From the IMG/VR virus record IMGVR_UViG_3300042691_016420, positions 1 through 64,000 of that record: a stretch of DNA of 64,000 bases; one strand, given 5' to 3'. Below, one piece after another: positions 636 to 63,673 of the stretch; the first letter of the stretch is position 1, and each line of letters starts with the position of its first letter. A program made the translations under genes and the position numbers. The notes beneath the pieces were generated by a model, which saw nothing but the letters and a program-made list of their open reading frames with translations, was not told the origin of the DNA and ran no database searches. The DNA is from a virus.

Positions 636-645
636 CGTATATTTG
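636..645 (+). promoter_or_regulatory. Putative promoter of the intron endonuclease (CGTATATTTG)
   Basis: Contains Bacteroidota -7 consensus TAnnTTTG and the CGTAWAW motif; lies in P5 hairpin just before ATG 649. Confidence 0.5.
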
Positions 646-15027: not shown

Positions 15028-15487
15028 GTTGTACTATTATTTTGTTTTTACCTACACTTTTATACGAGGATAATAGGGTATTAGCTGTAGCTAACCAGTA
15101 ATCTTTTAATCTAAAGATATATGCAATGCTTTGAAAACAGTTAGAAGTCTTCATATCTGAGAATTTTTTTGTAAGATATGTCCAATATCCTGCATCATAT
15201 TTATTCCCTAGTATCTCATCAAACCTTTTTCTTGAGTATGTAGGAATATCTATAACAATAAAGTCTCTTTCTCTTTCTTCCTGCTCCATCCACCACTTAT
15301 CCAAAGTTTTAGTTACTCTAAACCCTGTTGTTCCACTCTCGCAAATATAAAGCTTTCCATTAAAATCTCTAACTAATTGGGCATGGTTATAGTTACTTTT
15401 TGTAAAGTATCTAATAAGCCACCAATATACTCTTTGAAAAATATTACCTTTGGTATTTTTCACTAGTATGATATCCCAATCTTTCAT
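15008..15487 (-). CDS. Permuted papain-like NlpC/P60 (YiiX/YebB-like) enzyme
   Basis: DIILV...YNHAQL (His before Cys), LGNKYD, NCFQSIAYIF. Confidence 0.7.
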   Translation of the reverse strand: MKDWDIILVKNTKGNIFQRVYWWLIRYFTKSNYNHAQLVRDFNGKLYICESGTTGFRVTKTLDKWWMEQEERERDFIVIDIPTYSRKRFDEILGNKYDAGYWTYLTKKFSDMKTSNCFQSIAYIFRLKDYWLATANTLLSSYKSVGKNKIIVQHDKKDI

Positions 15488-15488
15488 C

Positions 15489-15848
15489 TTAGTTAAAGCG
15501 TCCTAGGCTATCTGCCCAAGCTACCTTAGCTTCTACGATATCAGAGATAACTACTGGTACATCCATCATAGCCATGAAGAACTCATACTCAGTCATTACT
15601 GCAGTAGGGTCTCCTTCTGGAACTATATTACCATTCTGATCTACCCAAGTAGTATTATCTGCTCTTAGAGTAACCCATTTAAATGGTATAAGTCTCATTG
15701 GTGTAACACCATCATTCTCATAATACTTTACTAAAAGTTTTAGGTTTACACATTGACCAGAAACTTCTTCTATCTCAATGTAGATAGAACCTAATTCTAC
15801 CTTTCTTTTAAAGCCATATTTAGGCTCATCACTTATATTGTATATCAT
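15489..15848 (-). CDS. Hypothetical protein (possible fibre chaperone)
   Basis: Directly follows tail fibre gene. Confidence 0.5.
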   Translation of the reverse strand: MIYNISDEPKYGFKRKVELGSIYIEIEEVSGQCVNLKLLVKYYENDGVTPMRLIPFKWVTLRADNTTWVDQNGNIVPEGDPTAVMTEYEFFMAMMDVPVVISDIVEAKVAWADSLGRFN

Positions 15849-15858
15849 AATTTTATTT

Positions 15859-18528: not shown

Positions 18529-18544
18529 TTTGTATTATTCTTTT

Positions 18545-20722: not shown

Positions 20723-20731
20723 AATATTTAT

Positions 20732-21898
20732 TTACGAAAACTTAAGCCAAAATGAATTATTTAAAGAATCAATAGTTGTTGTAGCAAAATTTCCTATATA
20801 AACTTTAAATTCAACATTTGGCCAATTAGTTGTACTAAAGTTTTGAGTTGCAATTGTAGGAAATAATGCTGAAGGAGAACCTGTTCCAATTGGTGCAGGA
20901 TTAGAAAAATTTTGAGTTATATATGAAACTTTATTAGAACCTGTATGTGCAAACCATAACCACTTTCCAACTCTTGGAGAATTAAAATATACCTCCTCAC
21001 TTGAGGTAAATTTTCTTAATACTTTATTTATAGATGGTCCATCAGCAGTATAATTATTAACCAGTGTAGCTATATCTGCAGCAGTAGGTTTAGTATCTAA
21101 GTATCCATAATAATATGGATATATACCTTCTACAGTTAGAGAATTAGATTCAAAATTACTATCTCCTGCTTGAGGATTAGTAGTTATTCTTTTTAAGAAA
21201 GGTCTTGGATCATCAACACCCTCACTATTCTTCTTAGGTAATCCAGGATCATAATTTCCTTTACCTATCCAAGTAATTACTCCAGGAGTTATTTGAAAAG
21301 TATTAGTATAAGTTAGTACATACTTTTGGTTAGGAATATTAGGATTAGGATAATCAGAACCTTGTGGTTGATTTGCTTGTGGAGATCCTGTAGGATTATT
21401 TACTGTTGAGATTTGTATATTATCCTTAAATAAACTTAAGCTAGTATAAGGTCCAGCATCATTCTTTATACCTGTTAAGGTAAGATTATTAGTTTGAGTA
21501 GTACCAACTTCATATATAGGACCAGGAAGAGTTCCTGCTAATGATAATGTTGGAATAGTATATGTTGCATCAGATGGAGGAAATAGTATATCATCAAGTA
21601 CTTGTACTATTGTCTTAGTCTTCCATATGGAAGCATCTTTACTATTTAATTTATTAATTTGCTGAGACTTAAGGCCATCAGGAATTAAGGTGTTATACTT
21701 AGTTCTTAATTCATTTATAAGATTAAATTCCAAACCTGCATTAGGTTCTAATGCAATAGTAGTAAATACAGAACCTTCCTTAAATAAGTCACTAAATATC
21801 TGATAGAGAGTTTTACCCTCAAAATTATATCCTGCAGGTATACCTCCTAAGGCATTCTGTGCTATAAGATTCTCAAAAAATAACTGCTTACTCTTCAT
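20732..21898 (-). CDS. Putative tail/structural protein
   Basis: Beta-rich, YPYYYG motif, tail cluster. Confidence 0.5.
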   Translation of the reverse strand: MKSKQLFFENLIAQNALGGIPAGYNFEGKTLYQIFSDLFKEGSVFTTIALEPNAGLEFNLINELRTKYNTLIPDGLKSQQINKLNSKDASIWKTKTIVQVLDDILFPPSDATYTIPTLSLAGTLPGPIYEVGTTQTNNLTLTGIKNDAGPYTSLSLFKDNIQISTVNNPTGSPQANQPQGSDYPNPNIPNQKYVLTYTNTFQITPGVITWIGKGNYDPGLPKKNSEGVDDPRPFLKRITTNPQAGDSNFESNSLTVEGIYPYYYGYLDTKPTAADIATLVNNYTADGPSINKVLRKFTSSEEVYFNSPRVGKWLWFAHTGSNKVSYITQNFSNPAPIGTGSPSALFPTIATQNFSTTNWPNVEFKVYIGNFATTTIDSLNNSFWLKFS

Positions 21899-22790: not shown

Positions 22791-22808
22791 GTACTTCTAT
22801 TCTTTTAT

Positions 22809-24098: not shown

Positions 24099-24137
24099 TT
24101 TATTTTATTTAAGTTATACTTATATACGATTTTAATA

Positions 24138-25037
24138 TTATGGTTCCCCACCTCCTTCAGTGGCTATTGGAAACTTTTGAGCAGGCATTTCCTCAAGAGG
24201 AATATCTACTCTATAAAAAGTATTTTTATTAAATTGATTACTAGTATTTCCAAAAGGATTAACCTCATATACTGACCAAATAGGAAATTTATCAGCATTA
24301 AGTTCTGTAAGAGGAAATAATGAAGTTTCACTATAAGTAGATACACCTTTTATAGTACATGTAAGATCTTCTACAGTATCAGGTTCATCACCAACATTTA
24401 CTTTAGATATTCTTTGTAGCTTAAAGTATGTAGGGTTAGCAGTTCTATTAGGCCCATATGCAAATACATTAGATGTTGGAGTAGTTACTGTTGTATCAAT
24501 ATTTAATACTCCATTATAGTTACCATCATCATCATAGTCTGCATTTTTTACAACCATGTAAAAATTAGCATTTATTGGAAATCCAATACTAACTGAAGAT
24601 TTAGGAAAACGATAAACAGTTTTTACACTAAATGCAGTTACTGATATAGGAGAGTTTTTATATAAAGTTAAACTATCACCATCTAATCCAACTGAATCAA
24701 CAATACCTAATAGTTTAAGATCTCCTATATCTTCTGTAGTTTCTCTATACAAAATGTAGTCTCCATTTTGTACATCTCCAAATATTTCTAAAGCAGAACT
24801 TATAGTCTTTGATGTAGTACTAGCACTATTTATATTACCAAGAGAAGTAGGTGTAAAAATCTCATAATTATTAGATAAGGTATTAAGATTAATAGGAGTA
24901 ATATTATCAAAATCTTGATTAGGATATTGATTTACTCCACTAAAAGATCCTGTAAATGGTGTAGTTACAAAGGCTGCTGTAGTCTCAGGAGTTTTTAAAA
25001 AAAACCTTATATCAGTAAAGTTTTTGATTGCAGGCAT
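24138..25037 (-). CDS. Structural protein, paralog of 22809-24098
   Basis: Colinear similarity with neighbour. Confidence 0.55.
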   Translation of the reverse strand: MPAIKNFTDIRFFLKTPETTAAFVTTPFTGSFSGVNQYPNQDFDNITPINLNTLSNNYEIFTPTSLGNINSASTTSKTISSALEIFGDVQNGDYILYRETTEDIGDLKLLGIVDSVGLDGDSLTLYKNSPISVTAFSVKTVYRFPKSSVSIGFPINANFYMVVKNADYDDDGNYNGVLNIDTTVTTPTSNVFAYGPNRTANPTYFKLQRISKVNVGDEPDTVEDLTCTIKGVSTYSETSLFPLTELNADKFPIWSVYEVNPFGNTSNQFNKNTFYRVDIPLEEMPAQKFPIATEGGGEP

Positions 25038-25804
25038 AAGTTTCTTATTCTATTATTTAGTAATGCAATATTTATAAGAGTATCTTTCTTAGAAAGAATT
25101 TTTTTAGTAGGTCCTAAATGATAGTAATCACAAGAATCAACTAGAAACTTATACGAGTAATTATAGTATTCGCAGATTTGTTTAAGAGAAGCTTGTTCTA
25201 TGAAGACCATATACTCCCAGTTATTCTTACTAATACCAGAATTATTCCTCATAAAGTTTAAAGCATTCTTACAATATATATCCTTAAGTTCTTGAGAATT
25301 AAAGAGTAAGGTACTAGCATTCAATCCATGTAAACTAAATTTAGTAAAGTTTGGAAACTTATAATTATCTGGTATTTCTATAACAGGAAACTGATATCTT
25401 TTCTTATCTTTATCTAAGGGGATATCATCATGAGCAGCAATCAAATCTACATCCTCATGAAGGATAGGAGTTCCCTTAAATACTGCATCTACATCCAGAT
25501 GCCACTCTCCTATAGGTTGTTTATCATATACCTTAATCTTGTGGTAAGCCCAAAAAGTTTTAAAGTTAATAGAGGGTTCTTCCTCAAGAGGTATAAACTT
25601 ATCAGGGATTATTCCTATACTACAACAGAGATCTTTAAATCTCTCATTGCAATGTATATTTACCTTAAAACCATGCTTTATGGTAGAAGATAGAAAGGAA
25701 TACTTAAATACAAGTTTCTCTAATTTAGAGAACTCTCTATCCTCTGCCAGATAATAAGTATAATTAACAGTTACATTTTTTGGTAGTGTCTCCACAATCA
25801 TCAC
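25007..25804 (-). CDS. GT-A-like (DUF6734-like) putative glycosyltransferase
   Basis: FWAYHKIKVY, HLDVDAV (DxD), NAS, FIEQ, YYHL. Confidence 0.55.
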   Translation of the reverse strand: MMIVETLPKNVTVNYTYYLAEDREFSKLEKLVFKYSFLSSTIKHGFKVNIHCNERFKDLCCSIGIIPDKFIPLEEEPSINFKTFWAYHKIKVYDKQPIGEWHLDVDAVFKGTPILHEDVDLIAAHDDIPLDKDKKRYQFPVIEIPDNYKFPNFTKFSLHGLNASTLLFNSQELKDIYCKNALNFMRNNSGISKNNWEYMVFIEQASLKQICEYYNYSYKFLVDSCDYYHLGPTKKILSKKDTLINIALLNNRIRNLCLQSKTLLI

Positions 25805-28458: not shown

Positions 28459-28473
28459 ACACCTTATACGAGG

Positions 28474-29046: not shown

Positions 29047-29061
29047 ACTTATTATACGCTC

Positions 29062-33222: not shown

Positions 33223-33710
33223 AGCATATCTTTTACGTTGTGCTCAAGAGTAATCATTACTTCTTTAGAGTCACCAAAGGTATTTATTTGATCTACAAAG
33301 GTTTGTGCCTTATCAAGTTCTTCTACTTGCTCAGCACAATACTTCATGCCCAAGGTCATAGTTGGAAAATCATCTAGAGCAGCTGCAGTCTTAGTAAGCT
33401 CATTACACTGTCTGGTAATCTCTTGCTCATGCTCAAGAGTCAACTCTAGAATATCCTTTAGAGAATTAAACTCATAATCAGGAGCAGGTAACTTAGTAAG
33501 CTCTGGCTGTACACCAAATGCAAGAAGATGATCTTTAGCAAACTTAGCATGAGCAAGTTCTTCATGAGCATACTTGTAATACAATGCTGCAAAGTTCTTA
33601 AATCCTTTATCATCAAGCCATAGAGCAAACTGCTCATAGATTCTGGAGGAAGCTTCTTCTTGTTGAATTCTGTAATTCAGAAGGTCTATAATTTTCTTAT
33701 CTAGTTTCAT
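33219..33710 (-). CDS. ftnA: Ferritin (non-heme, FtnA-like)
   Basis: QQEE, EELAH, EHEQEIT, EQVEE ferroxidase ligands; 163 aa. Confidence 0.85.
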   Translation of the reverse strand: MKLDKKIIDLLNYRIQQEEASSRIYEQFALWLDDKGFKNFAALYYKYAHEELAHAKFAKDHLLAFGVQPELTKLPAPDYEFNSLKDILELTLEHEQEITRQCNELTKTAAALDDFPTMTLGMKYCAEQVEELDKAQTFVDQINTFGDSKEVMITLEHNVKDML

Positions 33711-33715
33711 ATTTT

Positions 33716-45427: not shown

Positions 45428-45438
45428 AAGTTTTATTT

Positions 45439-47133: not shown

Positions 47134-47136
47134 GTT

Positions 47137-49134
47137 TTATTTTCTCTTATACGCTTTAGCTTTCTTTAAACCTTTAGCTGCAGTTTTGCTAGCAGTTTTG
47201 GGCACTAATTTAAGCAATCCATCAATATCTTTAATATCATAATTTATACCTAGATCTCTTAGAGTTTGTAGTCTCTGCTCATCAGCAGCTCTTTGTCCTG
47301 CCATTTCCTGAGCAACTTCAGTAGCACTATCAATCTTTTGACCTAACCCAATAAGTTGTTGATCATAAGCAGCTCTACCCATAGCTCTTTGTTGAGCATA
47401 TTGATTTCTAAGACCAAGATTTGCTTGAGCTTCAACATTGCCTAAGTCTATATTCTTATTAGCAATATCCTGTCTAGCAAGAGTATCTTGGATTACAGCA
47501 TCATTAGCTGCCTTCATTCTAGCAGCAGATAAGTTTCCTGCTTGTGCAAGATATCTGCCAGCATCTCCTCCTACAATATCTCTAGCACCTTCTCTGCCTG
47601 CTTGTTCAGCAAGTTGTATTTCTCTAAGAGTCTTAGGTAATTGAGAAGCATAATTATATCTACCTAACTTTAAGTAGTTTTCAGGAACACCTTCTATACC
47701 TTTACCAAGAATAGAAGTTCTTGCAGCAATCTCAGCCATAGCTGGCATATTAGCTAAGAAGTTACCCTTTCTCTTATTTCCTGCAAAAGTATCATTCTTA
47801 TCCTCAGGTTCTGGTGGAAGAGTAGGAGTAATATCATCTTTAGGTTTTTCTTTTTCTCCACCTACTGGTTTTACATCTTCCTCAAGTCCAGAAAGATAAG
47901 ATTTACCTTTATAATCAAATTTAGTTAAACCTTTATTTACAGCTTCTCTTCTTGCTGTTTCTAACTCAGCAGTAACTTTAGGAATCTTTCCACTATTAAC
48001 AGCTGCTATATAATCAGATAGAGAAAGGTTATACATTTTCTTAGCAGCTTCCTCACTCATCTCTCTACCATATCCTCCACCATAACCAAGTGCAGACTGT
48101 TCAGTAAAAGTTTTATTAGAACCAATTACTGGTCTTTTCTTAACAATGCCCTCAATTGTTTTACCTTTAGTAGATTTTTTACCAGCCTGAGCTTTATCAA
48201 CATTATCCTCAGGCATCTGTTCTATAATATTATTTAAGAGTTTATAGTTACCTTTCTTATAAGCAGCAATAGCTTGTTTATTCTTACCACCATTAGCAGT
48301 AACAATAGCAGAACCTTCTGGAATAGTTAACGCTCCAGTGCCATATTTATATGGGCTCTTACCTTCTACAGCAGAGGTAATTCTTTTAACATTAGCTCTT
48401 ATTTCATTAAGCTCCTTTGTCTCTTGCCCTTTGAGAAAAGTTTTAATACTTTCTCCTTCAGTAGCTTTACGATACTTATTACTAGCATTCATAACATCTA
48501 TTTCTCTTTGTAAAATATCTCTTCTCTGTTGTTTATAAAGATTAGTTACTTTATCTTTTTCAGCATTAGAGAGATCTTCCCAATCATAACCAAGATTTTT
48601 CTTACCAAATCTTTCTCTTTTAGTAATAACCATTTTACCATCTACTGTTTGGTATCTCTTATTACCAGGAAATACAGATTCTCCATCATAGTTATTAAAG
48701 TATTCTGTAGCTCTATCAGTAGACTTAGGAACAACTCTAGTTTTAGTTACCGGAGCTTTCTCAATATAAACTTTCTTTTCTCCAGATACAGTAGGGTAAG
48801 TTTTCTTTTTTACAGGAGTAGTGTCTTTTTTAATAGTAGTTCTAGCAGGAACAGTATCTTTCTTAATAGAGACTGCTTTAGCAGTTTTAACTTTTGCTTT
48901 AGGTAATGGAAAATCATATGGAACATCAGGAAGCTCATCAAACTCATTTGGAGGATTCATTATGTTCTCAAATTCTAACTCATTAACATCAATATCTTTT
49001 CCACCAGGTTGATACTTATATTTTTTCTTAGGATGTTTACAGCCGCAATTCTTCATGCCTTTTTTAGCTTCAGGAAGATTCTCATCTCCTCTATATTGTT
49101 TTACGGCTTTAGCCCCAGATAAAAGTTTATACAT
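47137..49134 (-). CDS. Basic cargo/ejection protein
   Basis: Lys-rich N-terminus, Q/A-rich coiled-coil C-terminus. Confidence 0.55.
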   Translation of the reverse strand: MYKLLSGAKAVKQYRGDENLPEAKKGMKNCGCKHPKKKYKYQPGGKDIDVNELEFENIMNPPNEFDELPDVPYDFPLPKAKVKTAKAVSIKKDTVPARTTIKKDTTPVKKKTYPTVSGEKKVYIEKAPVTKTRVVPKSTDRATEYFNNYDGESVFPGNKRYQTVDGKMVITKRERFGKKNLGYDWEDLSNAEKDKVTNLYKQQRRDILQREIDVMNASNKYRKATEGESIKTFLKGQETKELNEIRANVKRITSAVEGKSPYKYGTGALTIPEGSAIVTANGGKNKQAIAAYKKGNYKLLNNIIEQMPEDNVDKAQAGKKSTKGKTIEGIVKKRPVIGSNKTFTEQSALGYGGGYGREMSEEAAKKMYNLSLSDYIAAVNSGKIPKVTAELETARREAVNKGLTKFDYKGKSYLSGLEEDVKPVGGEKEKPKDDITPTLPPEPEDKNDTFAGNKRKGNFLANMPAMAEIAARTSILGKGIEGVPENYLKLGRYNYASQLPKTLREIQLAEQAGREGARDIVGGDAGRYLAQAGNLSAARMKAANDAVIQDTLARQDIANKNIDLGNVEAQANLGLRNQYAQQRAMGRAAYDQQLIGLGQKIDSATEVAQEMAGQRAADEQRLQTLRDLGINYDIKDIDGLLKLVPKTASKTAAKGLKKAKAYKRK

Positions 49135-49652: not shown

Positions 49653-49669
49653 AACTTTATTTTACGTTT

Positions 49670-52317: not shown

Positions 52318-52319
52318 GT

Positions 52320-55300
52320 TTATGCTACAGAAGGTTTGAAGAAAGTCTTAACGTAATTTAAAACTAAGGGTTTATCCTGATTATACGAGAGCTTAGTGTA
52401 CAGAAACTTACCTTTCATATGTGCTCTAAAGTCTGCATTAATATCTAGATTACTGCTCTCAAAAATATTTACATAAGGATCTACTACAGCATCTAGTGGT
52501 AATTCTGCATGGAAAGAACTTCTATAATAATTTGTAGGTACTTTAGTAGCATCATAATTATTTAAGAAGTTATTCTCAAAATCATCAGAATATGCAAAAG
52601 GAAGTTCTGTACTATTTTGTCTATCTGTCCAACAATGAATAGTTGAGAAAGATTCATCATTAAAGATATAACTGTTAGGTTCTACAAATCCTGGAGAATT
52701 TATTCCTTGATTTCCACCTGACATGGTATTCATCTCTATCCTATCAAATCTCTTAAATGCATCAGGTTGAGTATTCTCTACAAAAGTTATATAAGAGTTC
52801 TTTCTAATTCCATTTGGATTATCCATGTTATAAAAACTATTCTCATTATTTCTCCAAGCATATGAGGAACCATTTATTGTAAAGTAAGCATTGGGAGAAA
52901 AGTCATGAAGGGATGTCCATGTTTGAGTCTTAGGATAGAAAGAGATGGCTTTTTCCTGAGTAATATTATTAATTAAGAGTCTCTTATTAGCCCAATCATA
53001 TCCCATAGTATACTTATCATTAGTATTTACAAATCCTCTAAAGAATGAGAAAAGTCCTAAATCTGATATTTCTACAGGGGCATCTCCAGCAAATAAGAAT
53101 ACCTTACCTTGTTTATGGTCTAAGAACACTCTACCAAATGGAGTATTGGTTCCACTCTTATCAAGTGTGCCCATATAACCTCCTTTAATATCAAGGATAA
53201 GTTTAGATGGAAGTTGGAATACTCCAGCATTACCAAGTATTACTTGACCTTGAGATGTAGCTTGAGTAGTATTAGGATTAAAGTAAGAAAGCCATAATCC
53301 ATATTCTGTATGATGAAAGAAGTTATTATTGAATACAAAAGTATCTGTAATTTCTCCTCTATGTCTAGGTACATCATGAAAACTATTAGGAGAAAAATAT
53401 CTATACTGATCTACCAACTCACTCTCAAAAGATTGTGAGGAATATATACTTCTATTTTTATACTCTTGTATCTCATTAAAGAATAAAGGTTTAGGAAAAC
53501 TTAACTTTAATCCTGTAAGAGAAGAATATTGTTTATTATAACCAGTACTTACTTTCCACCATTCAAAATTAAATAGTCCAAAATTAGTTTCCTGATCATT
53601 TACAATATACTTGTAATTAGGGTAGAATGGAACTTTACCATCTTCTGTGTGTCTAAGAGAATAGTTATTCTTAGACTCTACATAAACTCCCATCATACAA
53701 TGTCCTTCTACTGTCTCATTAGTAGTTTTTCCAACAAGTTTATCATAAAAATTAAAGAAGTATTTACTTATATAAATATCCCCCTCAAGTTCTGCTGTTG
53801 TTGGTAAATTATTACCATCACCTATTACAACAACTGCCGGAGTATATTCTGCATTTTCTAACTTACCATATTGAAACTCATTATCATTAATGATTCTAGA
53901 TAAATTGATGCTTAATCTTTGAGTCTCATCTAAATCTTCATAATGATAACCAGGATTAAACATTGAAAAATCATCTTCCTCTTCAAAATCTTCTATTTGA
54001 TTAACAATAAATTGAGGGTCTAAGTAATATTTACTTTCAGCATTAGAGTTGTCATCAAAAAAATGTGAGTCTGAAGTTTTTAAGTGTATATATTGAGATG
54101 AAAATTTAATTGTAATTTTACTATCAATAACTATATTATTCTCAGAACCAATATTTGTAATATATTCTGCATCTTGTATATTTACTAAATTGCCTTTATT
54201 AGAGATAAACTCATTAAACTCAAAGAATAAGTTGGCATACAAAAGAGTATCAGTTCTTTGAGCATTTCTATCTGTACAAATAGGAATTGTTAATTTAACA
54301 TAGAAAGGATCAGGGCCATAAGTTAAATACCATGCAAAATAAGGCCCATCAACTTCAGGATTTCCTGAATGAATTATAAGATTATTACCATACCCTACTC
54401 TTTGTATTTTATATCCTGCCTTTACTTTACTAGCATCTAATAGTGTATCTGGAGAATGATACATTGCATAGGTTCTATTAGTAAACCATCTAGGGGCCCA
54501 TGTATAAGCTTGCACACTATCTTCACCCTCACCGCTTCCAACACTTTCTCTGTGGAATACACTGCCTGTCCAAAGGTTGCCTATATACTTATCATTGTTA
54601 TACTCATTCTGAAGATAAGGTCTTGAGAAACCATTATCAATTATTCTAGTATTAGTATCATTATTTCTAGGTTGAAAGCCAATTACATATCCTTGAATAT
54701 TAGCTTTCTGTTCATCAGTAAAGTTTATATTCTCAGCTCTAACCCTAAGTATATTTATATAATCCTCATCACCAATATATCCAGTTTGATCATAGTCTGG
54801 CATTTGATGATGTCTAATTCTTCCTGTTAAACCAACCTCTTGATATTTTTCTGTATACTCTTCTTTTGAGTACCAAACTGCTAGTGTAGGAATATTTACA
54901 TTAGGAGTAAGATTTCCTGGAATATGATATGCAAATCCTAAACTACCATCTTTATAAATTGGTGTAATTGAGAATGAGTAAATTTCTTCTCTCTGAAAAC
55001 CTTTTAATACTGAAGGGTCAGCATAAACATTAGTTTTCTGAAAGTTTTGATCTCTAGAAATATTTACAGTTTGATTGGTTGTAGTATTTATAAGTGAGTA
55101 TATTCTATCACTTCCTGGAAAAAAACTCCCTATTATTTCATTTGGCCAATTTAATCCTCCATTTGATTTTCTAACAGATAAAAAGTTTCTTCTTGTATCT
55201 ACAGATTTTTCATCTATAAACCAATATAACTTAATATTGTTAGCAACTTCTTGAAAACCAGCATCATATTTCTTACTAGTAATATTAGATAGTACAAGAA

Positions 55301-56264
55301 TATTATCTTTCTGTTCTATACATTTTGCACTATTAACATTTACAGGTATTTCTAATAATGCACTCTCACTAACATCCTGCAAATATTGAGATTCATTGCT
55401 AAATGATATTTCTAAGTTTTCCCTTATCTCAAATAAACCTAAACTTTTTATAGAGAGAACATTTGTTAAACCTATATATGTAATTACAACAGGTTCAATG
55501 TATTGATAGTTTTCATCAAGATTTTGTAAACTTATTAATATTCTTTGATTACTATTACTTTGAGGTGGAGCTCCAGTTACTTTATCATTATATATTTGAG
55601 TACCATTAGATACATCGGGTACACCAGGAACAATATTTATAAATCTAGAAGGTATGTTAAAAGCAGTTTTATTATTCTCACTTGTAGCATATCTAAATGC
55701 AAATGAGTATGTCCCTGTTGGAAGAGTTCCTCCTTGTTGAACTGAGTAATTAGCATATGGCATTTTATAACTCAGTTGTAAATCCCAATCTTCAAGAGTA
55801 TTATATATATCTGAGTTGTATTCTAAATCTTGAAATTGAGTAACATTAAATCTTCTAGGTTTATTACCCTCCTCAACAAAATATACTACAATTTCATTTT
55901 TAGAATTTATTCTAGCTACAGAATCTATCTCTTTTTCAAAATTTAATTTATAAGGAGTAAAAAAGTCATTAAAGATTCTCTCATAAACTCCATTCTGAAA
56001 TAAACCTATCTCAGAATATTTATTACCATCATTACCTAATTGTTGAAAGAAAATAATAAATAAGTCTTGTACAGGACAAGAACCTAAATATGTATAGGAA
56101 GCAGCATCTTCTAAGGTTTTAGTAATACTCTCTAACTCCTCATTAGTAAGTCTACCACTATCATTCCTAATCCAGTTATAGGCATCAACATAACTACCCT
56201 CTGGTTGCATCTGAGGGCTATTGCTTCTGTGCAATCCTTTCTCAAAACTATTAGTACCTTCCAT
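52320..56264 (-). CDS. Tail stabilization/muzzle protein
   Basis: 1314 aa; NSFEKGL N-terminus, FQREEIYSF.I, WTSLHDF, HMKGKF; position after tail tubular gene. Confidence 0.75.
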   Translation of the reverse strand: MEGTNSFEKGLHRSNSPQMQPEGSYVDAYNWIRNDSGRLTNEELESITKTLEDAASYTYLGSCPVQDLFIIFFQQLGNDGNKYSEIGLFQNGVYERIFNDFFTPYKLNFEKEIDSVARINSKNEIVVYFVEEGNKPRRFNVTQFQDLEYNSDIYNTLEDWDLQLSYKMPYANYSVQQGGTLPTGTYSFAFRYATSENNKTAFNIPSRFINIVPGVPDVSNGTQIYNDKVTGAPPQSNSNQRILISLQNLDENYQYIEPVVITYIGLTNVLSIKSLGLFEIRENLEISFSNESQYLQDVSESALLEIPVNVNSAKCIEQKDNILVLSNITSKKYDAGFQEVANNIKLYWFIDEKSVDTRRNFLSVRKSNGGLNWPNEIIGSFFPGSDRIYSLINTTTNQTVNISRDQNFQKTNVYADPSVLKGFQREEIYSFSITPIYKDGSLGFAYHIPGNLTPNVNIPTLAVWYSKEEYTEKYQEVGLTGRIRHHQMPDYDQTGYIGDEDYINILRVRAENINFTDEQKANIQGYVIGFQPRNNDTNTRIIDNGFSRPYLQNEYNNDKYIGNLWTGSVFHRESVGSGEGEDSVQAYTWAPRWFTNRTYAMYHSPDTLLDASKVKAGYKIQRVGYGNNLIIHSGNPEVDGPYFAWYLTYGPDPFYVKLTIPICTDRNAQRTDTLLYANLFFEFNEFISNKGNLVNIQDAEYITNIGSENNIVIDSKITIKFSSQYIHLKTSDSHFFDDNSNAESKYYLDPQFIVNQIEDFEEEDDFSMFNPGYHYEDLDETQRLSINLSRIINDNEFQYGKLENAEYTPAVVVIGDGNNLPTTAELEGDIYISKYFFNFYDKLVGKTTNETVEGHCMMGVYVESKNNYSLRHTEDGKVPFYPNYKYIVNDQETNFGLFNFEWWKVSTGYNKQYSSLTGLKLSFPKPLFFNEIQEYKNRSIYSSQSFESELVDQYRYFSPNSFHDVPRHRGEITDTFVFNNNFFHHTEYGLWLSYFNPNTTQATSQGQVILGNAGVFQLPSKLILDIKGGYMGTLDKSGTNTPFGRVFLDHKQGKVFLFAGDAPVEISDLGLFSFFRGFVNTNDKYTMGYDWANKRLLINNITQEKAISFYPKTQTWTSLHDFSPNAYFTINGSSYAWRNNENSFYNMDNPNGIRKNSYITFVENTQPDAFKRFDRIEMNTMSGGNQGINSPGFVEPNSYIFNDESFSTIHCWTDRQNSTELPFAYSDDFENNFLNNYDATKVPTNYYRSSFHAELPLDAVVDPYVNIFESSNLDINADFRAHMKGKFLYTKLSYNQDKPLVLNYVKTFFKPSVA

Positions 56265-56269
56265 AAATT

Positions 56270-57079
56270 CTATCTAAATCTTCCGTGTCTATTTTGTTGT
56301 TGCATAATACCCAAGTACCTGAATGAGGTATAGTAATGATTGGTAATTGGAAGAAGCCTCATATTCTCATTAGAGAGTCTTTGCATCATATGAATATCTG
56401 GCATTCTACCCTCTGTTCTAGCTTGCAGACAGTATCTGTTCCACTTCTGCTCAAAGAACATCATCTTAAATTCTGGATTCTTAAACTTGTATCCCTGATA
56501 GGAGAGTTGCTTACAGCAATACCATTGTAAAGCTTCTATAAAAGCTTCCAAGTCTGGGATAAGTGGTAACTCATTCTCATCTGTAGGAACTGCCCAGTAT
56601 TGCATAGTAATAGTTCCTTTCTCAAGATTAAAGAGGAAGCAGTTATTCTCAATTCTATAATCTAAAACTGAGTTCCAAGTCAAATCATTCTCAGGAGTTA
56701 GCCAGTTATTTACAGAATGTCTAATGGAGTTATTAAAGGGGTTATACTGTTGTGTAGGATCATAAAAGTTTACTCTCCTATTAGCATAGATGTAGGAAGT
56801 CTCAAGATAATTAGGAAGTCTAGTCTCCTCTACAAAAGTTTCTTGAGTACCATCAGGAGTTTCAACTTTTAACCATCTCAAGAAGTTAACCATATCACAA
56901 GGAATCTCTGCCCTGTAATCAGATATCTCAAGAACTTTTTCCTTTAGTACTTGTGGATAATCTCCACCAATATGCTGCAATGCAGCAGCTATCCATTCAT
57001 AACAATCAGCTATTGGGAGTGGTTCCACCACCAGTTGTTCTAGCCTGTATATTACTGTATTTATGCTTGCTAACTTCAT
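56270..57079 (-). CDS. Tail tubular/ring protein (P22 gp4-like)
   Basis: EWIAAAL, YWAVPTDENELPLIPD, W..YC.QAR; start at ATG 57079. Confidence 0.7.
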   Translation of the reverse strand: MKLASINTVIYRLEQLVVEPLPIADCYEWIAAALQHIGGDYPQVLKEKVLEISDYRAEIPCDMVNFLRWLKVETPDGTQETFVEETRLPNYLETSYIYANRRVNFYDPTQQYNPFNNSIRHSVNNWLTPENDLTWNSVLDYRIENNCFLFNLEKGTITMQYWAVPTDENELPLIPDLEAFIEALQWYCCKQLSYQGYKFKNPEFKMMFFEQKWNRYCLQARTEGRMPDIHMMQRLSNENMRLLPITNHYYTSFRYLGIMQQQNRHGRFR

Positions 57080-57473
57080 AATATAATTTATACGCATCTA
57101 TATTCTGAAGTATATAAGCAGCTAGAGATCTAGCTAAGACTCTGACTGTCTTAAACTTGTATCTATTAAAGATACCTTTGGGAGTAAAGTTTACCATACA
57201 AGCATAACCATTAGTATGCTCATTTAAGTGTCTAATAGTATAACCCTCTTCTCTGGTAGCTTTAAAGTCTATAGGTTTTTTCTTAAACTCTCTAGTAGGT
57301 TTAAAGCGTATTACCTCAAAGGTTCCTAGAGGTGTTTCTATTGTTTTACCTTTAAATAGGTGAGAATAGAATACCTTCTGAAACTCTCTAAGAATTTCAT
57401 CATAAGGTAAGTGTTTTAAGTTTGGGTTTTCAATAAGGAAATTTCCCTTATTGTTGACTTCCATCATTTTCAT
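57006..57473 (-). CDS. HU/IHF-like protein of the crAss structural block
   Basis: GKTIETPLGTFEV, PIDFKAT, HLNEHTNGY; start probably 57473/57467. Confidence 0.6.
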   Translation of the reverse strand: MKMMEVNNKGNFLIENPNLKHLPYDEILREFQKVFYSHLFKGKTIETPLGTFEVIRFKPTREFKKKPIDFKATREEGYTIRHLNEHTNGYACMVNFTPKGIFNRYKFKTVRVLARSLAAYILQNIDAYKLYYEVSKHKYSNIQARTTGGGTTPNS

Positions 57474-58104: not shown

Positions 58105-58111
58105 ATATTTT

Positions 58112-58118
58112 TTATACG
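58112..58118 (-). promoter_or_regulatory. Putative late promoter motif CGTATAA (representative copy)
   Basis: Exact copies also at 15060, 25149, 28464, 29052, 47147, 52381, 57088, 59666, 63629; this one sits between a terminator and ATG 58104. Confidence 0.6.
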
Positions 58119-58122
58119 ATAT

Positions 58123-58154
58123 AAAAAGAAAGAGGGAAGATTTCTCTTCCCCCT
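58123..58154 (-). terminator. Intrinsic terminator after auxiliary capsid gene
   Basis: Minus strand AGGGGGAAGA-GAAA-TCTTCCCTCT followed by TTCTTTTT. Confidence 0.8.
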
Positions 58155-58178
58155 AACTGTGAGTCTCCGATTTATATC

Positions 58179-59501: not shown

Positions 59502-59535
59502 TTTTTTAAATTTGTTTTTTAGTTATAAAATTTAT

Positions 59536-60171
59536 TTAAGTTACATCTTTAATTTGCACCTTAGACGGAGTCCTTTCAGACCCATATGTCTCAAGTGCAT
59601 ATATAACAGCTAGATTTATTATCTGCTCATGTAAAGCAGGATGTAAATCAGATGTTATATTCTGTTTATACGAGACTTGAATTGGTTTCTTTAAATAAAC
59701 CATATCAAACTTCTTAAGAATACTTCCTTTTGGAATATATGCTAAGATTTGAGATACTTTAAAGAATATTGCAATCTCAGTATCATCACTTCTTTCAAAG
59801 GGATTAGAGATTACTTTAGTCTCTGTATCAAGAATATGTCTTACTGTTCTTACTTTGCCCTCTATACCATTTATCTCAAGAGTAGCATTAGATTGTAGGT
59901 GAAAATAATAATCTGCAGGTAGAGTTACTGCATACACATCATCATCAAAAGTATCTAACTGAAATGGACAAGAAGTACGAAGAGTTTGAGTAGAGAGTAC
60001 ATCAGAGAGTTTCTGTGTAGCCTCAAACCCTTCATAAGCATCTTGTACAATCTTATTGATAGCTTTATTAAAGAAGACATCAACCACTTCAGGTTGTAGA
60101 CGTAGAGCACTCTCAGTATCAAGAGTATCTAGTTGAACCTTAAATGCTTGATGCCATTCTTTAATATTCAT
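59536..60171 (-). CDS. Head-tail ring/connector protein
   Basis: FFNKA, YLKKP, LHEQIINLAV. Confidence 0.6.
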   Translation of the reverse strand: MNIKEWHQAFKVQLDTLDTESALRLQPEVVDVFFNKAINKIVQDAYEGFEATQKLSDVLSTQTLRTSCPFQLDTFDDDVYAVTLPADYYFHLQSNATLEINGIEGKVRTVRHILDTETKVISNPFERSDDTEIAIFFKVSQILAYIPKGSILKKFDMVYLKKPIQVSYKQNITSDLHPALHEQIINLAVIYALETYGSERTPSKVQIKDVT

Positions 60172-60174
60172 ATC

Positions 60175-61038
60175 TTATGCAGTTAACATCTTATCATACG
60201 CTTTCTCAACAAGATCTTTAAGCTCCTGATTCTTTTTATCTTTCAGGAATTTATAAATCTCATCAAAAGTAAAGCCTAGTTGGATACCATTAAACTTGTA
60301 TCCATTATTATCTTTAATAATAGCTCCAGAGAGATATAGTTGGTTATACTTATACTTCTCATCTACTGAAGGATCATTCATCAGAGCTACAAAAGTATCT
60401 GCCTGTTTAGGGGAACCCTCAATGTAGTCTGTAAGTCTCTCATCAATAGCGGCATCTAGAAGATTAGCTGCACTCTTACCAGTAATAACTGTAAAGTACT
60501 TTCTCTTATCTTCTGGAGTAAGAGTGAGATACTTAGCATAAGCCTCAGCTTTATGTCTTCTATTCTCAACCTTCTGCTTAGAAACTTCTGCAAGAGAAGT
60601 AAGCTCTAGCATAGCAGCTGAGGATGGGTTAGGGTTATTATAAGCAATAGAGGGGTTAGCAATCAGAAACTTAATCTTTAAGTTGTTCCATACTTCCTCA
60701 ATATCAGCTTCTCCTGTCTCAATAGTAAGACCAGTATCTTTACCCTCAGTATCTAGGTTAACTTCATAGTCTACCCAGAAACCATTATGCATTTCACCAA
60801 AACACTCAATTGGACTATCATACCAAAAGTTGCTTCTAGGAGAAAAGTAACCCATTGGTTTACCTAATTTCTCCTCAAAATATTTTTCATCTTCTTTAGT
60901 AAGACCAGTAATAAAGTTATTAGACATATCCTTGTATGCCACAATCCTATATTTAGTCTTATCAAATTGGGTAAACTTTTTACCACCTTTTGTAAATCCC
61001 CAAGAACTCTTAGGAATACTTCTTAATCTATACTTCAT
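60175..61038 (-). CDS. Conserved crAss-type structural/cargo protein downstream of MCP
   Basis: TGLTKEDEKYFEEKLG...SPRSNFW; start at ATG 61038. Confidence 0.6.
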   Translation of the reverse strand: MKYRLRSIPKSSWGFTKGGKKFTQFDKTKYRIVAYKDMSNNFITGLTKEDEKYFEEKLGKPMGYFSPRSNFWYDSPIECFGEMHNGFWVDYEVNLDTEGKDTGLTIETGEADIEEVWNNLKIKFLIANPSIAYNNPNPSSAAMLELTSLAEVSKQKVENRRHKAEAYAKYLTLTPEDKRKYFTVITGKSAANLLDAAIDERLTDYIEGSPKQADTFVALMNDPSVDEKYKYNQLYLSGAIIKDNNGYKFNGIQLGFTFDEIYKFLKDKKNQELKDLVEKAYDKMLTA

Positions 61039-61081
61039 AATTTTTAATTTTAATTCTTGTTGTTGCAAATATATGTTGAAA

Positions 61082-61120
61082 TAGGATAGGAAGACAGGAA
61101 AAATTCCTGCTCCTATCCTA
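61082..61120 (-). terminator. Long hairpin after major capsid gene (terminator or mRNA stabiliser)
   Basis: TAGGATAGGA..CAGGAA-AAA-TTCCTG.TCCTATCCTA; weak U-tract. Confidence 0.55.
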
Positions 61121-61137
61121 CAACAACATGAGAAAAA

Positions 61138-62592
61138 TTAGACGAATCTACCAATCTTAGCAGGAATCAGTTCACCAGCTGAAAGGGGATCTTTCAACAG
61201 GATACCAGACCTTCTAATCATGTGGATTTGAGCACCATCAAGGGCAGAACTAGAAGGAGCAAATCCTTGCTTATAGTTACCATTGATATCAGTCATACCT
61301 TCAATCTGGATTGAACCCATCTGAGCACCCTTAAGGGTTACTTTTACAAGGTTAGCACCATTAGCATTGTTACCAATATTGAAGATAGTGAAACGAGAGG
61401 ACTCCAGAGGATATCCAGTAGCAGGGTCAAGTTGTCTGTTAAGTACAATATCATCATACAGAGGACAATGTACTACAGTTACCTCAAGACCATTAGGGAA
61501 CATACAAGTTTTGAACTGAGAACCAAAGCTCATATTCATTCCAGTGCCAGATACAAACTGTCCACCTTCATAAACTTTAATAGAGAGGTTCTTAACTTTT
61601 TCCTGAATTGCTCTATCAAACTCAATCATACCCTGTCTTCCAGTCATCATAACAAACTTGAAGTCACCACCAGATTGACCATTAGCAATCCAAGAGAGGT
61701 TCATCAGGTAATCCTGAAGCATATCATAAGACAGTCTGTTATAAGTCTGCTTGTTTCTGTTAGAGATTTGTTGTCTCAGACCAGCACCTTCAATGATAGG
61801 TCTACCATTAGGTCCAAGGACATTACCTTTAGACATAGTACCATACATCAGAGCAATTTCTTCTCTCTTTAAGAGTTGAGCCATAGCTTCCCACTTAGCC
61901 TTCTCAATCCAAGAGAAAGTCTTAGATCCATCAGACTTGGTCAGCTCAATAGCAATCTTTTGCTTCATAGCTTCAGCAGAGATAGCATGCTCAATTCTGT
62001 GAGTAGTGAAGTAGTTCTCAAACTTAGCAGGAGAGAAGAAATCTACCCAACCACCTCTGTCCGACATCTCAGATACAGGAGAGTAAGCTCTACTAAGTTT
62101 AGCACCAGCAACTACATCATTAGGATCAAAATACTGAGCAGGGTCAGAGAATTGGAAAGTATATAACCAACCATTACCAGTCTGAATAGGATCAGCAATA
62201 ATGTTTACAAGAGCACCACTATCAGTTCTTACTTTATCAATACCAGAGAACCACTTCTCTTCCAAGGTCATTTGTACAGGAGCACAGTTAAGACCAAGGT
62301 TGGTACCAGTAGCACCAGCAGTAATCTTGATAGTTCTATCATTCATGTAAGCTACATCCCACTGATAGATATTGCTATCAATTTCCTTTTCCTCAATTCT
62401 ACCAAGAGCCTCAGTGAGACACTGGAGAGAGTGACCATATTGCTTACCAAGAAGGTAAGATACTACCTGTCCAAATTGGAAAGGTTTGCGAAGCAGTAAC
62501 TGATCAAGCTTGTTGCTATCAGTTAAAGCACCTGAGACTGCCCTGGCATCAATGAGCCTGGGGAGACTACTGGAATTTACGTTAACATCCAT
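61138..62592 (-). CDS. Major capsid protein
   Basis: 484 aa; GAGLRQQI, MTGRQGMIEFDRAI, HCPLYDD, DPATGYPLES; position between scaffold and ring genes. Confidence 0.85.
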   Translation of the reverse strand: MDVNVNSSSLPRLIDARAVSGALTDSNKLDQLLLRKPFQFGQVVSYLLGKQYGHSLQCLTEALGRIEEKEIDSNIYQWDVAYMNDRTIKITAGATGTNLGLNCAPVQMTLEEKWFSGIDKVRTDSGALVNIIADPIQTGNGWLYTFQFSDPAQYFDPNDVVAGAKLSRAYSPVSEMSDRGGWVDFFSPAKFENYFTTHRIEHAISAEAMKQKIAIELTKSDGSKTFSWIEKAKWEAMAQLLKREEIALMYGTMSKGNVLGPNGRPIIEGAGLRQQISNRNKQTYNRLSYDMLQDYLMNLSWIANGQSGGDFKFVMMTGRQGMIEFDRAIQEKVKNLSIKVYEGGQFVSGTGMNMSFGSQFKTCMFPNGLEVTVVHCPLYDDIVLNRQLDPATGYPLESSRFTIFNIGNNANGANLVKVTLKGAQMGSIQIEGMTDINGNYKQGFAPSSSALDGAQIHMIRRSGILLKDPLSAGELIPAKIGRFV

Positions 62593-62633
62593 TTTACTTT
62601 ATTTTGTTTTTAAGGTTTTACAATTTATTTTAC

Positions 62634-63608
62634 TTATATGATAATATCATCAAAGTCATCTATATTACTATTTCTCTTACTACCAGAAGAACCTGAACGG
62701 ATATTATTATCCTTTTGGCTCTTCAAAGCTTTAGAGAGTTTATCAGCAACATTAGTAGTAGCTCTTTTCTGTAAGTCCTCACTATTAAAGTTAGTATAGT
62801 ACATAAAGGCCATTACTAATTGTTTCTCATAATCCTGAGAATCTTCCTGTAACCTAGTTAAGCCACTCTTAGTAGGCTGTGTCATATAGTTAAAGAAATC
62901 ATCTCTGGTTCTTTTATCCATCTTAAATCCCTGTATCTCCTCAATACTGTTGATTGTTTGTCTAAGAGTTACCATTTGTTCTCTGGCATACTCTTCTTCC
63001 TCAATCTTCCTTTGTTCTAAGGAATTAAGATATTCTTGCATTTGAGCTCTTTGTGAGTTTACAAGAGCACTATGTGCTTCTTCTACCTCATTACCAAAAG
63101 TTCCATCATCTTTAGAACTCTCAATAAGACGAGCTATTCTATCTTCAGAAAGACCCTTAGCAGTATAGTAATCTATTACTACTTGCTCTTGAGTTCCTGC
63201 ATCAGACATATCTAACTCACTGTAATTTACTTCTCCATAAATCTGCATTACATCTTGGATTGAACCTCCATTCTGTACTACATCATAGAGCATTGCTAAC
63301 TCCTCATTCTCTTGGAATGCAGCAGCTAGTCTAGCATTTACAGTATCCTCAAGGAGTTCTTGAATACCATCTTCACTGACATCATACTCCTTGTCCTCAT
63401 CTGCAAATAAAACTCCCTTTTCTACCAAATCCTCCATGAGAATCTGATAAGGGGTTTTATCCTCTTCATTAATCTCCTCCTCATAATCTTGTTCTTTAGA
63501 TTCTTCATAAGAATCTTCAGTATCCTCAAGATTTTCCTCCTCTACATCTGTCTCTTCAGGTGTAGGTTTTACATTTTCTAATTCTTCTTCTACAAAATCA
63601 CCAAACAT
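62634..63608 (-). CDS. Acidic scaffolding-like protein
   Basis: Very D/E-rich, coiled coil, immediately upstream of MCP. Confidence 0.65.
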   Translation of the reverse strand: MFGDFVEEELENVKPTPEETDVEEENLEDTEDSYEESKEQDYEEEINEEDKTPYQILMEDLVEKGVLFADEDKEYDVSEDGIQELLEDTVNARLAAAFQENEELAMLYDVVQNGGSIQDVMQIYGEVNYSELDMSDAGTQEQVVIDYYTAKGLSEDRIARLIESSKDDGTFGNEVEEAHSALVNSQRAQMQEYLNSLEQRKIEEEEYAREQMVTLRQTINSIEEIQGFKMDKRTRDDFFNYMTQPTKSGLTRLQEDSQDYEKQLVMAFMYYTNFNSEDLQKRATTNVADKLSKALKSQKDNNIRSGSSGSKRNSNIDDFDDIII

Positions 63609-63673
63609 GTTGTTCTAATTTTAAATTGTTATACGGAAATTATTATACTATCTAATATTTATTATTAGATTTT

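What the first reader, a model, noticed from the sequence alone, without database searches (positions are those of the whole stretch)
15060..63635. Recurrent CGTATAA motif upstream of late genes, spaced for leaderless mRNAs
Seen: in a CpG-poor genome, TTATACG (minus-strand CGTATAA) occurs at 15060, 25149, 28464, 29052, 47147, 52381, 57088, 58112, 59666 and 63629, with variants CGTAAAA/CGTAAAT/CGTATAT at 33231, 49660, 20730 and 24122, nearly all at gene junctions. Distance from the motif T to the A of the next ATG is 12 (58104), 13 (57079), 13 (33222), 12 (20722), 12 (49652), 10 (29046) and 10 (28458), where a -10-type element would put +1 on or near the start codon. The copy at 58112 directly follows a terminator. 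Inference: a phage late promoter, resembling the 5' half of the host -7 element, that drives many leaderless transcripts.
Basis: partly seen in the sequence, partly recalled or inferred. Interest (0 to 1): 0.72.

Follow-up and report, generated by a model that had tools for sequence, protein, structure and literature searches.

The report
Late-gene promoter motif of a crAss-like phage
A 7-letter DNA word (CGTATAA) sits in front of about half of the structural genes of a freshwater crAss-like phage and is most likely the promoter read by a sigma factor that the phage itself encodes, which would be a way of switching on late genes not yet described for this phage order.

Summary
CGTATAA occurs 10 times in the window, all on the minus strand, against 0.78 expected. 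In the whole 88.7-kb phage record there are 14 copies, all in the sense of the local genes. It is the most over-represented 7-mer in a genome with CpG o/e of 0.085. Eleven copies or variants lie 5-8 nt before an ATG. Seven are embedded in the last 17-149 nt of the upstream gene, always as xCG-TAT-AAx.

Relatives at 65-88% nucleotide identity keep the motif's CG at 67 of 67 aligned sites, against 46% for other CGs. A relative with only 45% MCP identity has the motif at the same gene junctions. No -35 or other flanking position is conserved.

The phage encodes a 149-aa ECF-type sigma factor outside the window (genome 76773-77222). It was found only in the clade that carries the motif. CGTA is the known -10 core of ECF sigma-W promoters.

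Best reading (confidence 0.55): a -35-less late promoter class read by host core RNAP plus the phage sigma, giving leaderless or short-leader mRNAs. No transcription start was measured, because the metatranscriptome contigs cannot show one. I rate it a new variant of a known kind. Another first-stage reader of an overlapping window noted the same idea.

The parts
15060..15066 (-). CGTATAA, embedded as TCG-TAT-AAA in the 3' end of gene 15008..15487, 32 nt before ATG 15027
25149..25155 (-). CGTATAA, embedded as TCG-TAT-AAG in gene 25007..25801, 111 nt before ATG 25037
28464..28470 (-). CGTATAA in a 15-nt intergenic gap, 5 nt before ATG 28458; conserved in relative G002
29052..29058 (-). CGTATAA in a 15-nt intergenic gap, 5 nt before ATG 29046; conserved in G002
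47147..47153 (-). CGTATAA, embedded as GCG-TAT-AAG in the last codons of gene 47137..49134, 13 nt before ATG 47133; conserved in G002
52381..52387 (-). CGTATAA, embedded as TCG-TAT-AAT in gene 52320..56264, 63 nt before ATG 52317; invariant in 4 relatives while the flanks vary
57088..57094 (-). CGTATAA, 8 nt before ATG 57079 (the likely true start of ORF 56270..57097); embedded as GCG-TAT-AAA in overlapping ORF 57006..57470; invariant in 8 relatives, including one at about 68% identity
58112..58118 (-). CGTATAA, 7 nt before ATG 58104 (virion structural protein, phrog_9863), directly after the terminator
58121..58154 (-). Intrinsic terminator (10-bp G+C-rich stem, then a T tract) ending the highly expressed MCP operon
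   Evidence: RNA contigs of runs X1 and X2 stop at 58167 and 58165, and depth falls from about 29 to 1.5
59666..59672 (-). CGTATAA, embedded as TCG-TAT-AAA in gene 59536..60171, 164 nt before ATG 59501; a 13-nt block is invariant in 9 relatives whose flanks diverge strongly; an equivalent site exists in L032, L024 and L017
63629..63635 (-). CGTATAA, intergenic, 20 nt before ATG 63608 (the gene preceding the major capsid protein gene)
49660..49666 (-). Variant CGTAAAA, 7 nt before ATG 49652; conserved in G002 beside an indel
20730..20736 (-). Variant CGTAAAT, 7 nt before ATG 20722; conservation not testable with the loci held
24122..24128 (-). Variant CGTATAT, 23 nt before ATG 24098; conservation not testable
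33231..33237 (-). Variant CGTAAAA, 8 nt before ATG 33222; doubtful member, since G002 has TGTTAAA here
636..645 (+). CGTATATTTG: better read as a host-type TATATTTG box (638-645), 3 nt before ATG 649 of an HNH endonuclease gene, than as a member of the CGTATAA class
61066..61073 (-). TATATTTG box of the Bacteroidetes sigma-A -7 type, after the strong hairpin that follows the MCP gene and 27 nt before ATG 61038; belongs to the second promoter-like class

Best explanation
CGTATAA is the core, and apparently the only sequence-specific element, of a phage-specific late promoter class in a clade of freshwater crAss-like phages. The proposed mechanism is inferred. An early or middle gene outside the window (genome 76773-77222, itself preceded by a host-type TATATTTG box) makes a 149-aa ECF-type sigma factor. 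This sigma joins host core RNA polymerase, and its sigma-2 domain reads CGTATAA as a -10-type element on the non-template strand without needing a -35 box. Transcription then starts about 6-8 nt downstream.

Where the motif lies 5-8 nt before ATG (11 sites counting variants), the mRNA would be leaderless or nearly so. Where it lies in the 3' end of the upstream gene, it would give leaders of 13-165 nt.

Shown here: the motif's excess, its orientation, its placement, its evolutionary constraint, and the existence and clade-restriction of the sigma gene. Inferred: that it is a promoter, that this sigma reads it, and where transcription starts.
For: (1) Excess: 10 copies against 0.78 expected in the window. 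There are 14 in the genome, and it is the top 7-mer under a Markov-1 model. It accounts for 14 of the 430 CGNNNNN words; the next most frequent has 6.

(2) All 14 copies are in gene sense, and 12 lie in the 57-kb structural block. Whole records G001 and G002 show the same pattern.

(3) Placement: 9 of 14 lie within 50 nt upstream of a start (p about 1e-11). One follows a terminator at which RNA contigs of two studies stop.

(4) Constraint: the motif CG is kept in 67 of 67 aligned relatives, against 160 of 345 for other CGs. The motif is invariant while its flanks vary. Five of the genome's 12 TCG serine codons, out of 1857 serine codons, lie inside the motif.

(5) Deep conservation and turnover: L032 (MCP 45% identical) has 8 forward and 0 reverse copies against 0.16 expected, at the equivalent junctions. 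Four relatives have a motif 8 nt before the orthologue of gene 59536..60171 where this phage has none.

(6) The variable distance to ATG (5 to 164 nt) suits a promoter and does not suit a ribosome-binding element.

(7) P0020 matches Pfam Sigma70_r2 at 29.4 bits (cut-off 24), matches a PHROG sigma factor family at 9e-8, and has R. sphaeroides ECF RpoE as its best PDB sequence hit. An AlphaFold model (pLDDT 82) matches ECF sigmas in Foldseek, with the sigma-2 domain at rmsd 1.6-2.0 A.

(8) Sigma homologues occur in 5 of 6 motif-clade records. PF04542 is absent from 10 crAss-like records without the motif, 6 of them 94-100% complete, plus phi14:2.

(9) ECF promoters have CGT in the -10 element, and CGTA is selective for sigma-W (PMC5758882).

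(10) In 33 sites there is a weak A/T preference with no G at the 6th-7th nt after the motif, where a start would be expected.
Against: No transcription start site was observed. The RNA runs are held only as contigs, which cannot show 5' ends.

ECF sigmas normally need an AAC-type -35 element 14-17 bp upstream. None is present, and no position from -50 to -1 is conserved in 33 sites.

RNA depth downstream of the terminator and motif at 58118 is low (about 1.5 against 29). That copy is therefore not a strong promoter in that sample, or the per-contig depth figure misleads.

The high-depth RNA contig runs straight across the motif at 63635, so that copy is not the sole start of the MCP operon.

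The link between sigma and motif rests on co-occurrence within a single clade, which amounts to one evolutionary event.
Confidence: 0.55

Rival explanations
1. The motif is an RNA-level signal in polycistronic late transcripts. It could be a site for a sequence-specific endoribonuclease that trims mRNAs to leaderless or short-leader forms, or a binding site for a phage translational regulator or enhancer.
For: The orientation is sense-strand only. Eleven sites lie 5-8 nt before ATG, the spacing typical of ribosome-binding elements. RNA is continuous across the motif at 63635. No -35 element is present.
Against: Conserved copies lie 45-165 nt from the next ATG, inside upstream genes, with no start codon at the right distance. 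The motif is not complementary to the anti-Shine-Dalgarno sequence. No candidate nuclease was identified. This reading does not explain the co-occurring sigma factor or the CGTA match to ECF -10 elements.
Confidence: 0.2
2. The motif is the DNA site of a different late regulator. That could be an activator or repressor protein, or the phage's own giant virion RNA polymerase. It would not be the -10 element of the ECF-like sigma.
For: The motif has no -35 partner. crAss-like phages carry their own RNAP; here that is the 3903-aa ORF 33716..45427. The sigma-motif link is only correlative.
Against: In phi14:2 the virion RNAP transcribes early genes, and no common motif was found for its transcripts. 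Middle and late genes there depend on host RNAP (bioRxiv 10.1101/2020.03.07.982082). An asymmetric, unrepeated 7-mer is typical of sigma recognition and not of dimeric regulators.
Confidence: 0.15
3. The motif is a strand-specific DNA signal unrelated to gene expression, such as a Chi-like recombination hotspot, a primase site or a packaging-related site.
For: The strand bias is co-oriented with the replichore, since GC skew changes sign between the two gene blocks. The density is about one copy per 4.4 kb.
Against: The copies cluster strongly just upstream of start codons. The motif is nearly absent from the plus-strand replichore, with 1 copy in about 31 kb. Gain and loss occur at gene junctions.
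Confidence: 0.05

Closest known systems
ECF sigma-dependent promoters, e.g. Bacillus subtilis sigma-W (TGAAAC-N16-CGTA)
   Same: The -10 core is CGT/CGTA (PMC5758882). The candidate reader is a small two-domain ECF-type sigma.
   Different: No AAC-type -35 element at any spacing. The conserved block extends 3' to 7 nt (CGTATAA). The sigma is phage-encoded, no anti-sigma was seen, and its own gene lacks the motif, so it is not autoregulated.
Phage T4 late promoters (TATAAATA, read by gp55 with gp33 and the gp45 clamp). This comparison rests on my own knowledge.
   Same: A single short -10-type element without a -35. It contains TATAA. It is scattered before many late genes, often inside the end of the upstream gene. 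It is read by a phage-encoded sigma-like protein on host core RNAP.
   Different: The sequence differs, with an obligatory CG prefix. The candidate sigma has ECF architecture with a sigma-4-like domain and is not a gp55-type protein. Clamp dependence is unknown. T4 late mRNAs have leaders with Shine-Dalgarno sites.
Middle/late promoters of crAss-like phage phi14:2 (Drobysheva et al., bioRxiv 10.1101/2020.03.07.982082)
   Same: The same phage order and the same gene modules (portal, MCP, tail and RNAP genes). The boxes often lie only 4-6 nt before ATG.
   Different: The phi14:2 promoters are tripartite and of the host sigma-A type: an A-rich block, then TTG, then TAnnTTTG, as read upstream of g070, g075, g108, g110, g092 and g093. 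They are transcribed by host holoenzyme. phi14:2 has no Sigma70_r2 gene, no CGTATAA excess (2 plus and 3 minus copies), and CpG o/e of 0.46.

Membership tests
ECF sigma-dependent promoter | -10 element with a CGT core | tested here: met
   All 14 copies begin with CGTA. The reference consensus is taken from PMC5758882.
ECF sigma-dependent promoter | -35 element (AAC motif) 14-17 bp upstream of the -10 | tested here: not met
   No position from -50 to -1 exceeds 0.3 bit in 33 sites from four diverged genomes. Reading the 13 minus-strand sites printed by eye found AAC at irregular spacing in only a few.
ECF sigma-dependent promoter | A cognate ECF-type sigma factor is available | tested here: met
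   P0020 scores 29.4 bits on Sigma70_r2 against a cut-off of 24. Its best PDB hit is ECF RpoE at 1e-4. The top Foldseek hits are all ECF sigmas. That this sigma binds the motif is not tested.
ECF sigma-dependent promoter | Transcription starts about 6-8 nt downstream of the -10 | not testable with these tools
   Only contigs of the RNA runs were available.
T4-type late promoter | A single -10-type element, with no -35 | tested here: met
T4-type late promoter | Consensus TATAAATA read by a gp55-family sigma, with clamp activation | tested here: not met
   The consensus is CGTATAA. Only 5 of the 14 copies continue with a further A. P0020 aligns over its full length with ECF sigmas, including a sigma-4-like C-terminus. 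The only clamp-like hit is a sub-threshold DNA_pol3_beta_3 match (E 0.024).
Bacteroidetes sigma-A promoter (-33 TTTG / -7 TAnnTTTG) | A TAnnTTTG box near -7 | tested here: not met
   CGTATAA lacks TTTG. Separate TATATTTG boxes exist at other genes.
Leaderless mRNA | Transcript 5' end at the A of the AUG | not testable with these tools
   The geometry is compatible at 11 sites, with 5-8 nt between motif and ATG. No 5' ends were measured.
Shine-Dalgarno-type ribosome-binding element | Fixed 5-9 nt spacing to every served start codon, and complementarity to the 16S rRNA 3' end | tested here: not met
   Spacing ranges from 5 to 164 nt, and conserved copies lie far from any start. The motif is not complementary to CCUCC. 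The host 16S rRNA is unknown.

The most novel reading that the evidence does not exclude
A lineage of Crassvirales has replaced the host-sigma-A late promoters seen in phi14:2 with its own minimal system. A phage ECF-type sigma would work without any -35 contact on a 7-bp element. That element would be placed so that about half of the late mRNAs are leaderless, in a genome so purged of CpG that about one CpG in fifteen marks a promoter.
Probability: 0.3. Interest if true: 0.7.

Novelty: new variant of a known kind. Interest (0 to 1): 0.55.

Why it matters
Late transcription in crAss-like phages is currently attributed to unmodified host sigma-A holoenzyme, on the basis of one model phage, phi14:2.

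A phage-encoded ECF-like sigma with its own compact promoter would show that the order uses more than one late-transcription strategy. It would also give a rare case of a -35-independent ECF-type sigma.

It would offer a simple sequence rule for annotating late operons and true start codons in uncultured freshwater Crassvirales. One example here is ATG 57079 in place of 57097.

The idea is directly testable with one recombinant protein and short DNA templates.

Tried and rejected
- **Megablast against GenBank phages:** 8 kb of the window gave no match.
- **The look-up of encoding contigs:** The contigs of the graded MCP homologues P0003-P0016 could not be fetched. I used the search for related loci with an MCP alignment instead.
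- **Metatranscriptomes:** X1 and X2 hold the phage, but only as Logan contigs, so no 5' ends, strand or local depth are available.
  - Two X1 contigs have their upstream ends 25 and 26 nt below motif copies (47122 against 47147; 57062 against 57088). With only 8 of 34 contigs listed, I treat this as a hint and not as evidence.
  - Runs X3 and X4 hold only small shares from diverged relatives. I draw nothing about habitat or expression from them.
- **Search for a -35 or any second block around the motif:** nothing found.
- **Sigma-70-type consensus scan:** 75 hits against 78.7 expected, so it is uninformative.
- **Chance or composition artefact:** rejected.
- **Repeat or mobile element:** rejected, because nothing beyond the 7 nt is shared between copies.
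- **Protein-level selection on [S/A]-Y-[K/N]:** rejected as the cause, because the rare TCG and GCG codons are kept and half the copies are intergenic.
- **Literature:** searches found no paper describing a sigma factor, this motif or CpG depletion in crAss-like phages. This covers only the held library.
Full report
**What the window is.** The window is the first 64 kb of an 88,668-bp IMG/VR virus record. Its major capsid protein (61138-62592, minus strand; phrog_11589) is about 35% identical to those of gut crAss-like phages. The gene layout is that of Crassvirales. A plus-strand replication and nucleotide-metabolism block carries a Sak4-like protein, primase, exonuclease, RNR and thymidylate synthase. 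A 57-kb minus-strand block (13965-71313) carries the structural genes and a 3903-aa ORF of the size of a virion RNA polymerase. Near-identical sequence is held by freshwater metatranscriptomes.

**The observation.** CGTATAA occurs 10 times in the window, all on the minus strand. Dinucleotide-preserving shuffles, which keep the very low CG count, give 0.78 on average and never more than 3. The whole record has 13 minus-strand copies and 1 plus-strand copy, each in the sense of the local genes. Under a Markov-1 model it is the most over-represented 7-mer of the genome. Among the 430 words that start with CG it occurs 14 times, and the next most frequent occurs 6 times. It is also the only non-A/T-rich word enriched in the 50 nt upstream of ORF starts. 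Three of the ten exact copies, however, lie 63-164 nt before the next start, inside the upstream gene.

**Anatomy.**
- *Spacing to the next ATG.* Counting variants, the gap between motif and ATG is 5, 5, 6, 7, 7, 7, 7, 8 or 8 nt at nine sites in this genome. It is 8 nt at a further site that only some relatives have. The remaining gaps are 13, 19, 20, 23, 32, 45, 63, 111, 116 and 164 nt.
- *Coding-embedded copies.* Seven exact copies lie inside coding DNA. All are in the last 17-149 nt of the upstream gene, and all are in the frame xCG-TAT-AAx.
- *Rare codons.* These seven copies use 5 of the genome's 12 TCG codons (out of 1857 serine codons) and 2 of its 12 GCG codons. The constraint therefore acts on the DNA or RNA and not on the protein.
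- *Flanks.* Across 33 sites from four diverged genomes, no position from -50 to +40 outside the 7-mer is conserved. The only exception is a weak A/T preference, with no G, at the 6th-7th nt after the motif.

**Terminator and RNA evidence.** The copy at 58118 lies directly after an intrinsic terminator. In the best-matching metatranscriptome, contig depth is 28-29 from beyond 64000 down to 58167, and 1.5-3.7 downstream of that. A second study's contig stops at 58165. The terminator therefore works. Expression of the next gene needs either read-through or re-initiation within the roughly 25 nt that hold the motif.

**Evolution.** Fifteen IMG/VR relatives at 65-88% nucleotide identity keep the motif at every orthologous site while the flanks vary. 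The motif's CG is kept in 67 of 67 aligned cases, against 160 of 345 for other CGs in the same region. Four relatives have a CGTATAA 8 nt before the orthologue of gene 59536..60171 where this phage has none, so copies are gained and lost at gene junctions.

A much more distant relative, L032 (MCP 45% identical, 27.6% G+C), has 8 forward and 0 reverse copies against 0.16 expected. These lie before the equivalents of the portal gene, the gene after the portal, the gene before the MCP, the 440-aa gene (again inside the preceding gene) and the 218-aa virion protein gene.

Crassvirales loci with MCP identity near 33% show no excess, and neither does phi14:2. Of the variants, CGTAAAA at 49666 is conserved in relative G002, while the one at 33237 is not.

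**A candidate reader.** Outside the window, at genome 76773-77222 on the plus strand, lies a 149-aa ORF (P0020).
- It passes Pfam's cut-off for Sigma70_r2 (29.4 bits against 24) and matches a PHROG sigma-factor family.
- Its closest solved relative by sequence is an ECF sigma, R. sphaeroides RpoE, at 1e-4.
- It aligns over its full length with ECF sigmas, including a sigma-4-like C-terminal helix-turn-helix.
- Its AlphaFold model (pLDDT 82) retrieves only sigma factors, almost all ECF-type, in the Foldseek rows listed. Foldseek E-values are weak, at 0.009 or more, but the sigma-2 domain fits at 1.6-2.0 A.
- Homologues are present in four of five other motif-clade records; the fifth is a 48%-complete fragment.
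- Neither P0020 nor PF04542 is found in any of ten crAss-like records without the motif, six of which are 94-100% complete, nor in phi14:2.
- The sigma gene is preceded not by CGTATAA but by TATATTTG, 4 nt before its ATG.

**Two promoter-like classes.** TATATTTG matches the Bacteroidetes sigma-A '-7' consensus TAnnTTTG. I read the same box upstream of phi14:2 g070, g075, g108, g110, g092 and g093. Four of these (g070, g075, g108, g110) are the promoters that Drobysheva et al. mapped and showed to depend on host RNAP. In the present genome this box precedes six genes. Among them are a divergent pair at the boundary of the two blocks and the sigma gene.

This suggests a cascade. Host-type promoters, or virion-RNAP promoters, would express the sigma, and the sigma would then open the CGTATAA promoters of the structural block. 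ECF promoters typically carry CGT in the -10 element, and CGTA is the sigma-W-selective form (PMC5758882).

**Geometry of the start.** If CGTATAA occupies about -13 to -7, the start falls on the 7th nt after it. Gaps of 5-8 nt then put the A of ATG at -1 to +3, within the usual latitude of start-site choice. Leaderless or near-leaderless mRNAs are thus plausible for about half of the sites. The host-type boxes in this phage and in phi14:2 are likewise only 3-6 nt from ATG, so this compact architecture may be general in these phages.

**What is not shown.** No 5' end was measured. The lack of any -35 element is atypical for ECF sigmas. The C-terminal helix of P0020 lacks the arginines usual in the -35-reading helix. 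This is compatible with loss of -35 reading, but that is inference. The RNA contig that crosses 63635 and the low depth after 58118 show that not every copy is a dominant start in that sample. The sigma-motif association is one clade deep.

The main rival is an RNA-level signal for processing or translation. The conserved copies far from any start codon argue against it, but only 5'-end chemistry can exclude it.

**Verdict.** The late-promoter interpretation is the best supported and gains a concrete candidate sigma. The leaderless part is plausible for about half of the copies. The suggested likeness to the host -7 box is not supported.

I found no description of this system in the held literature. 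A first-stage note on an overlapping window proposed the same idea (e1-6107107). That note is not independent evidence.

Noticed in passing
whole window and whole genome record; also loci L009-L033, L058, L092, L093, L097: CpG depletion is extreme: o/e 0.074 in the window and 0.085 in the genome (215 CG in 88.7 kb). GpC is normal (1.02) and there is no TpG or CpA excess, so it does not look deamination-driven. It affects all codon positions: arginine is AGA/AGG 991 times against CGN 47 times. The whole clade with MCP identity of 45% or more shares it. At least two other crAss-like lineages are equally CpG-poor but lack the CGTATAA excess. The cause is unknown; restriction avoidance is one possibility.
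   Followed up: partly
window 638-645(+), 25821-25828(-), 61066-61073(-); genome 71324(+), 71339(-), 76761(+): A second promoter-like class is present. TATATTTG boxes of the Bacteroidetes sigma-A -7 type lie 3-28 nt before ATGs. They include a divergent pair at the boundary of the two gene blocks and one 4 nt before the sigma gene. The same box type lies upstream of the mapped phi14:2 middle promoters.
   Followed up: partly
genome 76773-77222(+), outside the window (L098:12773-13222): This is a 149-aa phage-encoded ECF-type sigma factor (P0020). Full-length homologues of 150-176 aa at 34-40% identity exist in public metagenomes, forming a small family.
   Followed up: yes
genome 76609-76681(+) (L098:12609-12681): A phage tRNA-Arg(UCU) lies between an HNH endonuclease gene and the sigma gene and is followed by a hairpin with a T tract. 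It fits the phage's near-exclusive use of AGA for arginine.
   Followed up: no
window 61075-61125(-): A very stable hairpin (-34 kcal/mol for the folded 105 nt, z -6.9) lies directly after the MCP stop codon. RNA contigs run through it at unchanged depth, so it may be a stabilising 3' structure or a leaky terminator.
   Followed up: partly
window 57006-57470(-) and 56270-57079(-): An unlisted ORF of about 155 aa (57006..57470) overlaps the next gene by about 74 nt. The next gene probably starts at ATG 57079 and not at 57097, since CGTATAA lies between the two ATGs.
   Followed up: partly
window 12227-12766(+) and 13094-13978(+): A MazG-like pyrophosphatase gene and a thymidylate-synthase-family gene lie close together, separated by one small ORF. 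In some phages this pairing goes with modified bases. I did not examine it, and a link to the CpG depletion is pure speculation.
   Followed up: no
window 649-1278(+) and genome 76194-76559(-): There are two HNH endonuclease genes, each with its own promoter-like box abutting the ATG: TATATTTG 3 nt before the first and CGTATAA 6 nt before the second.
   Followed up: no
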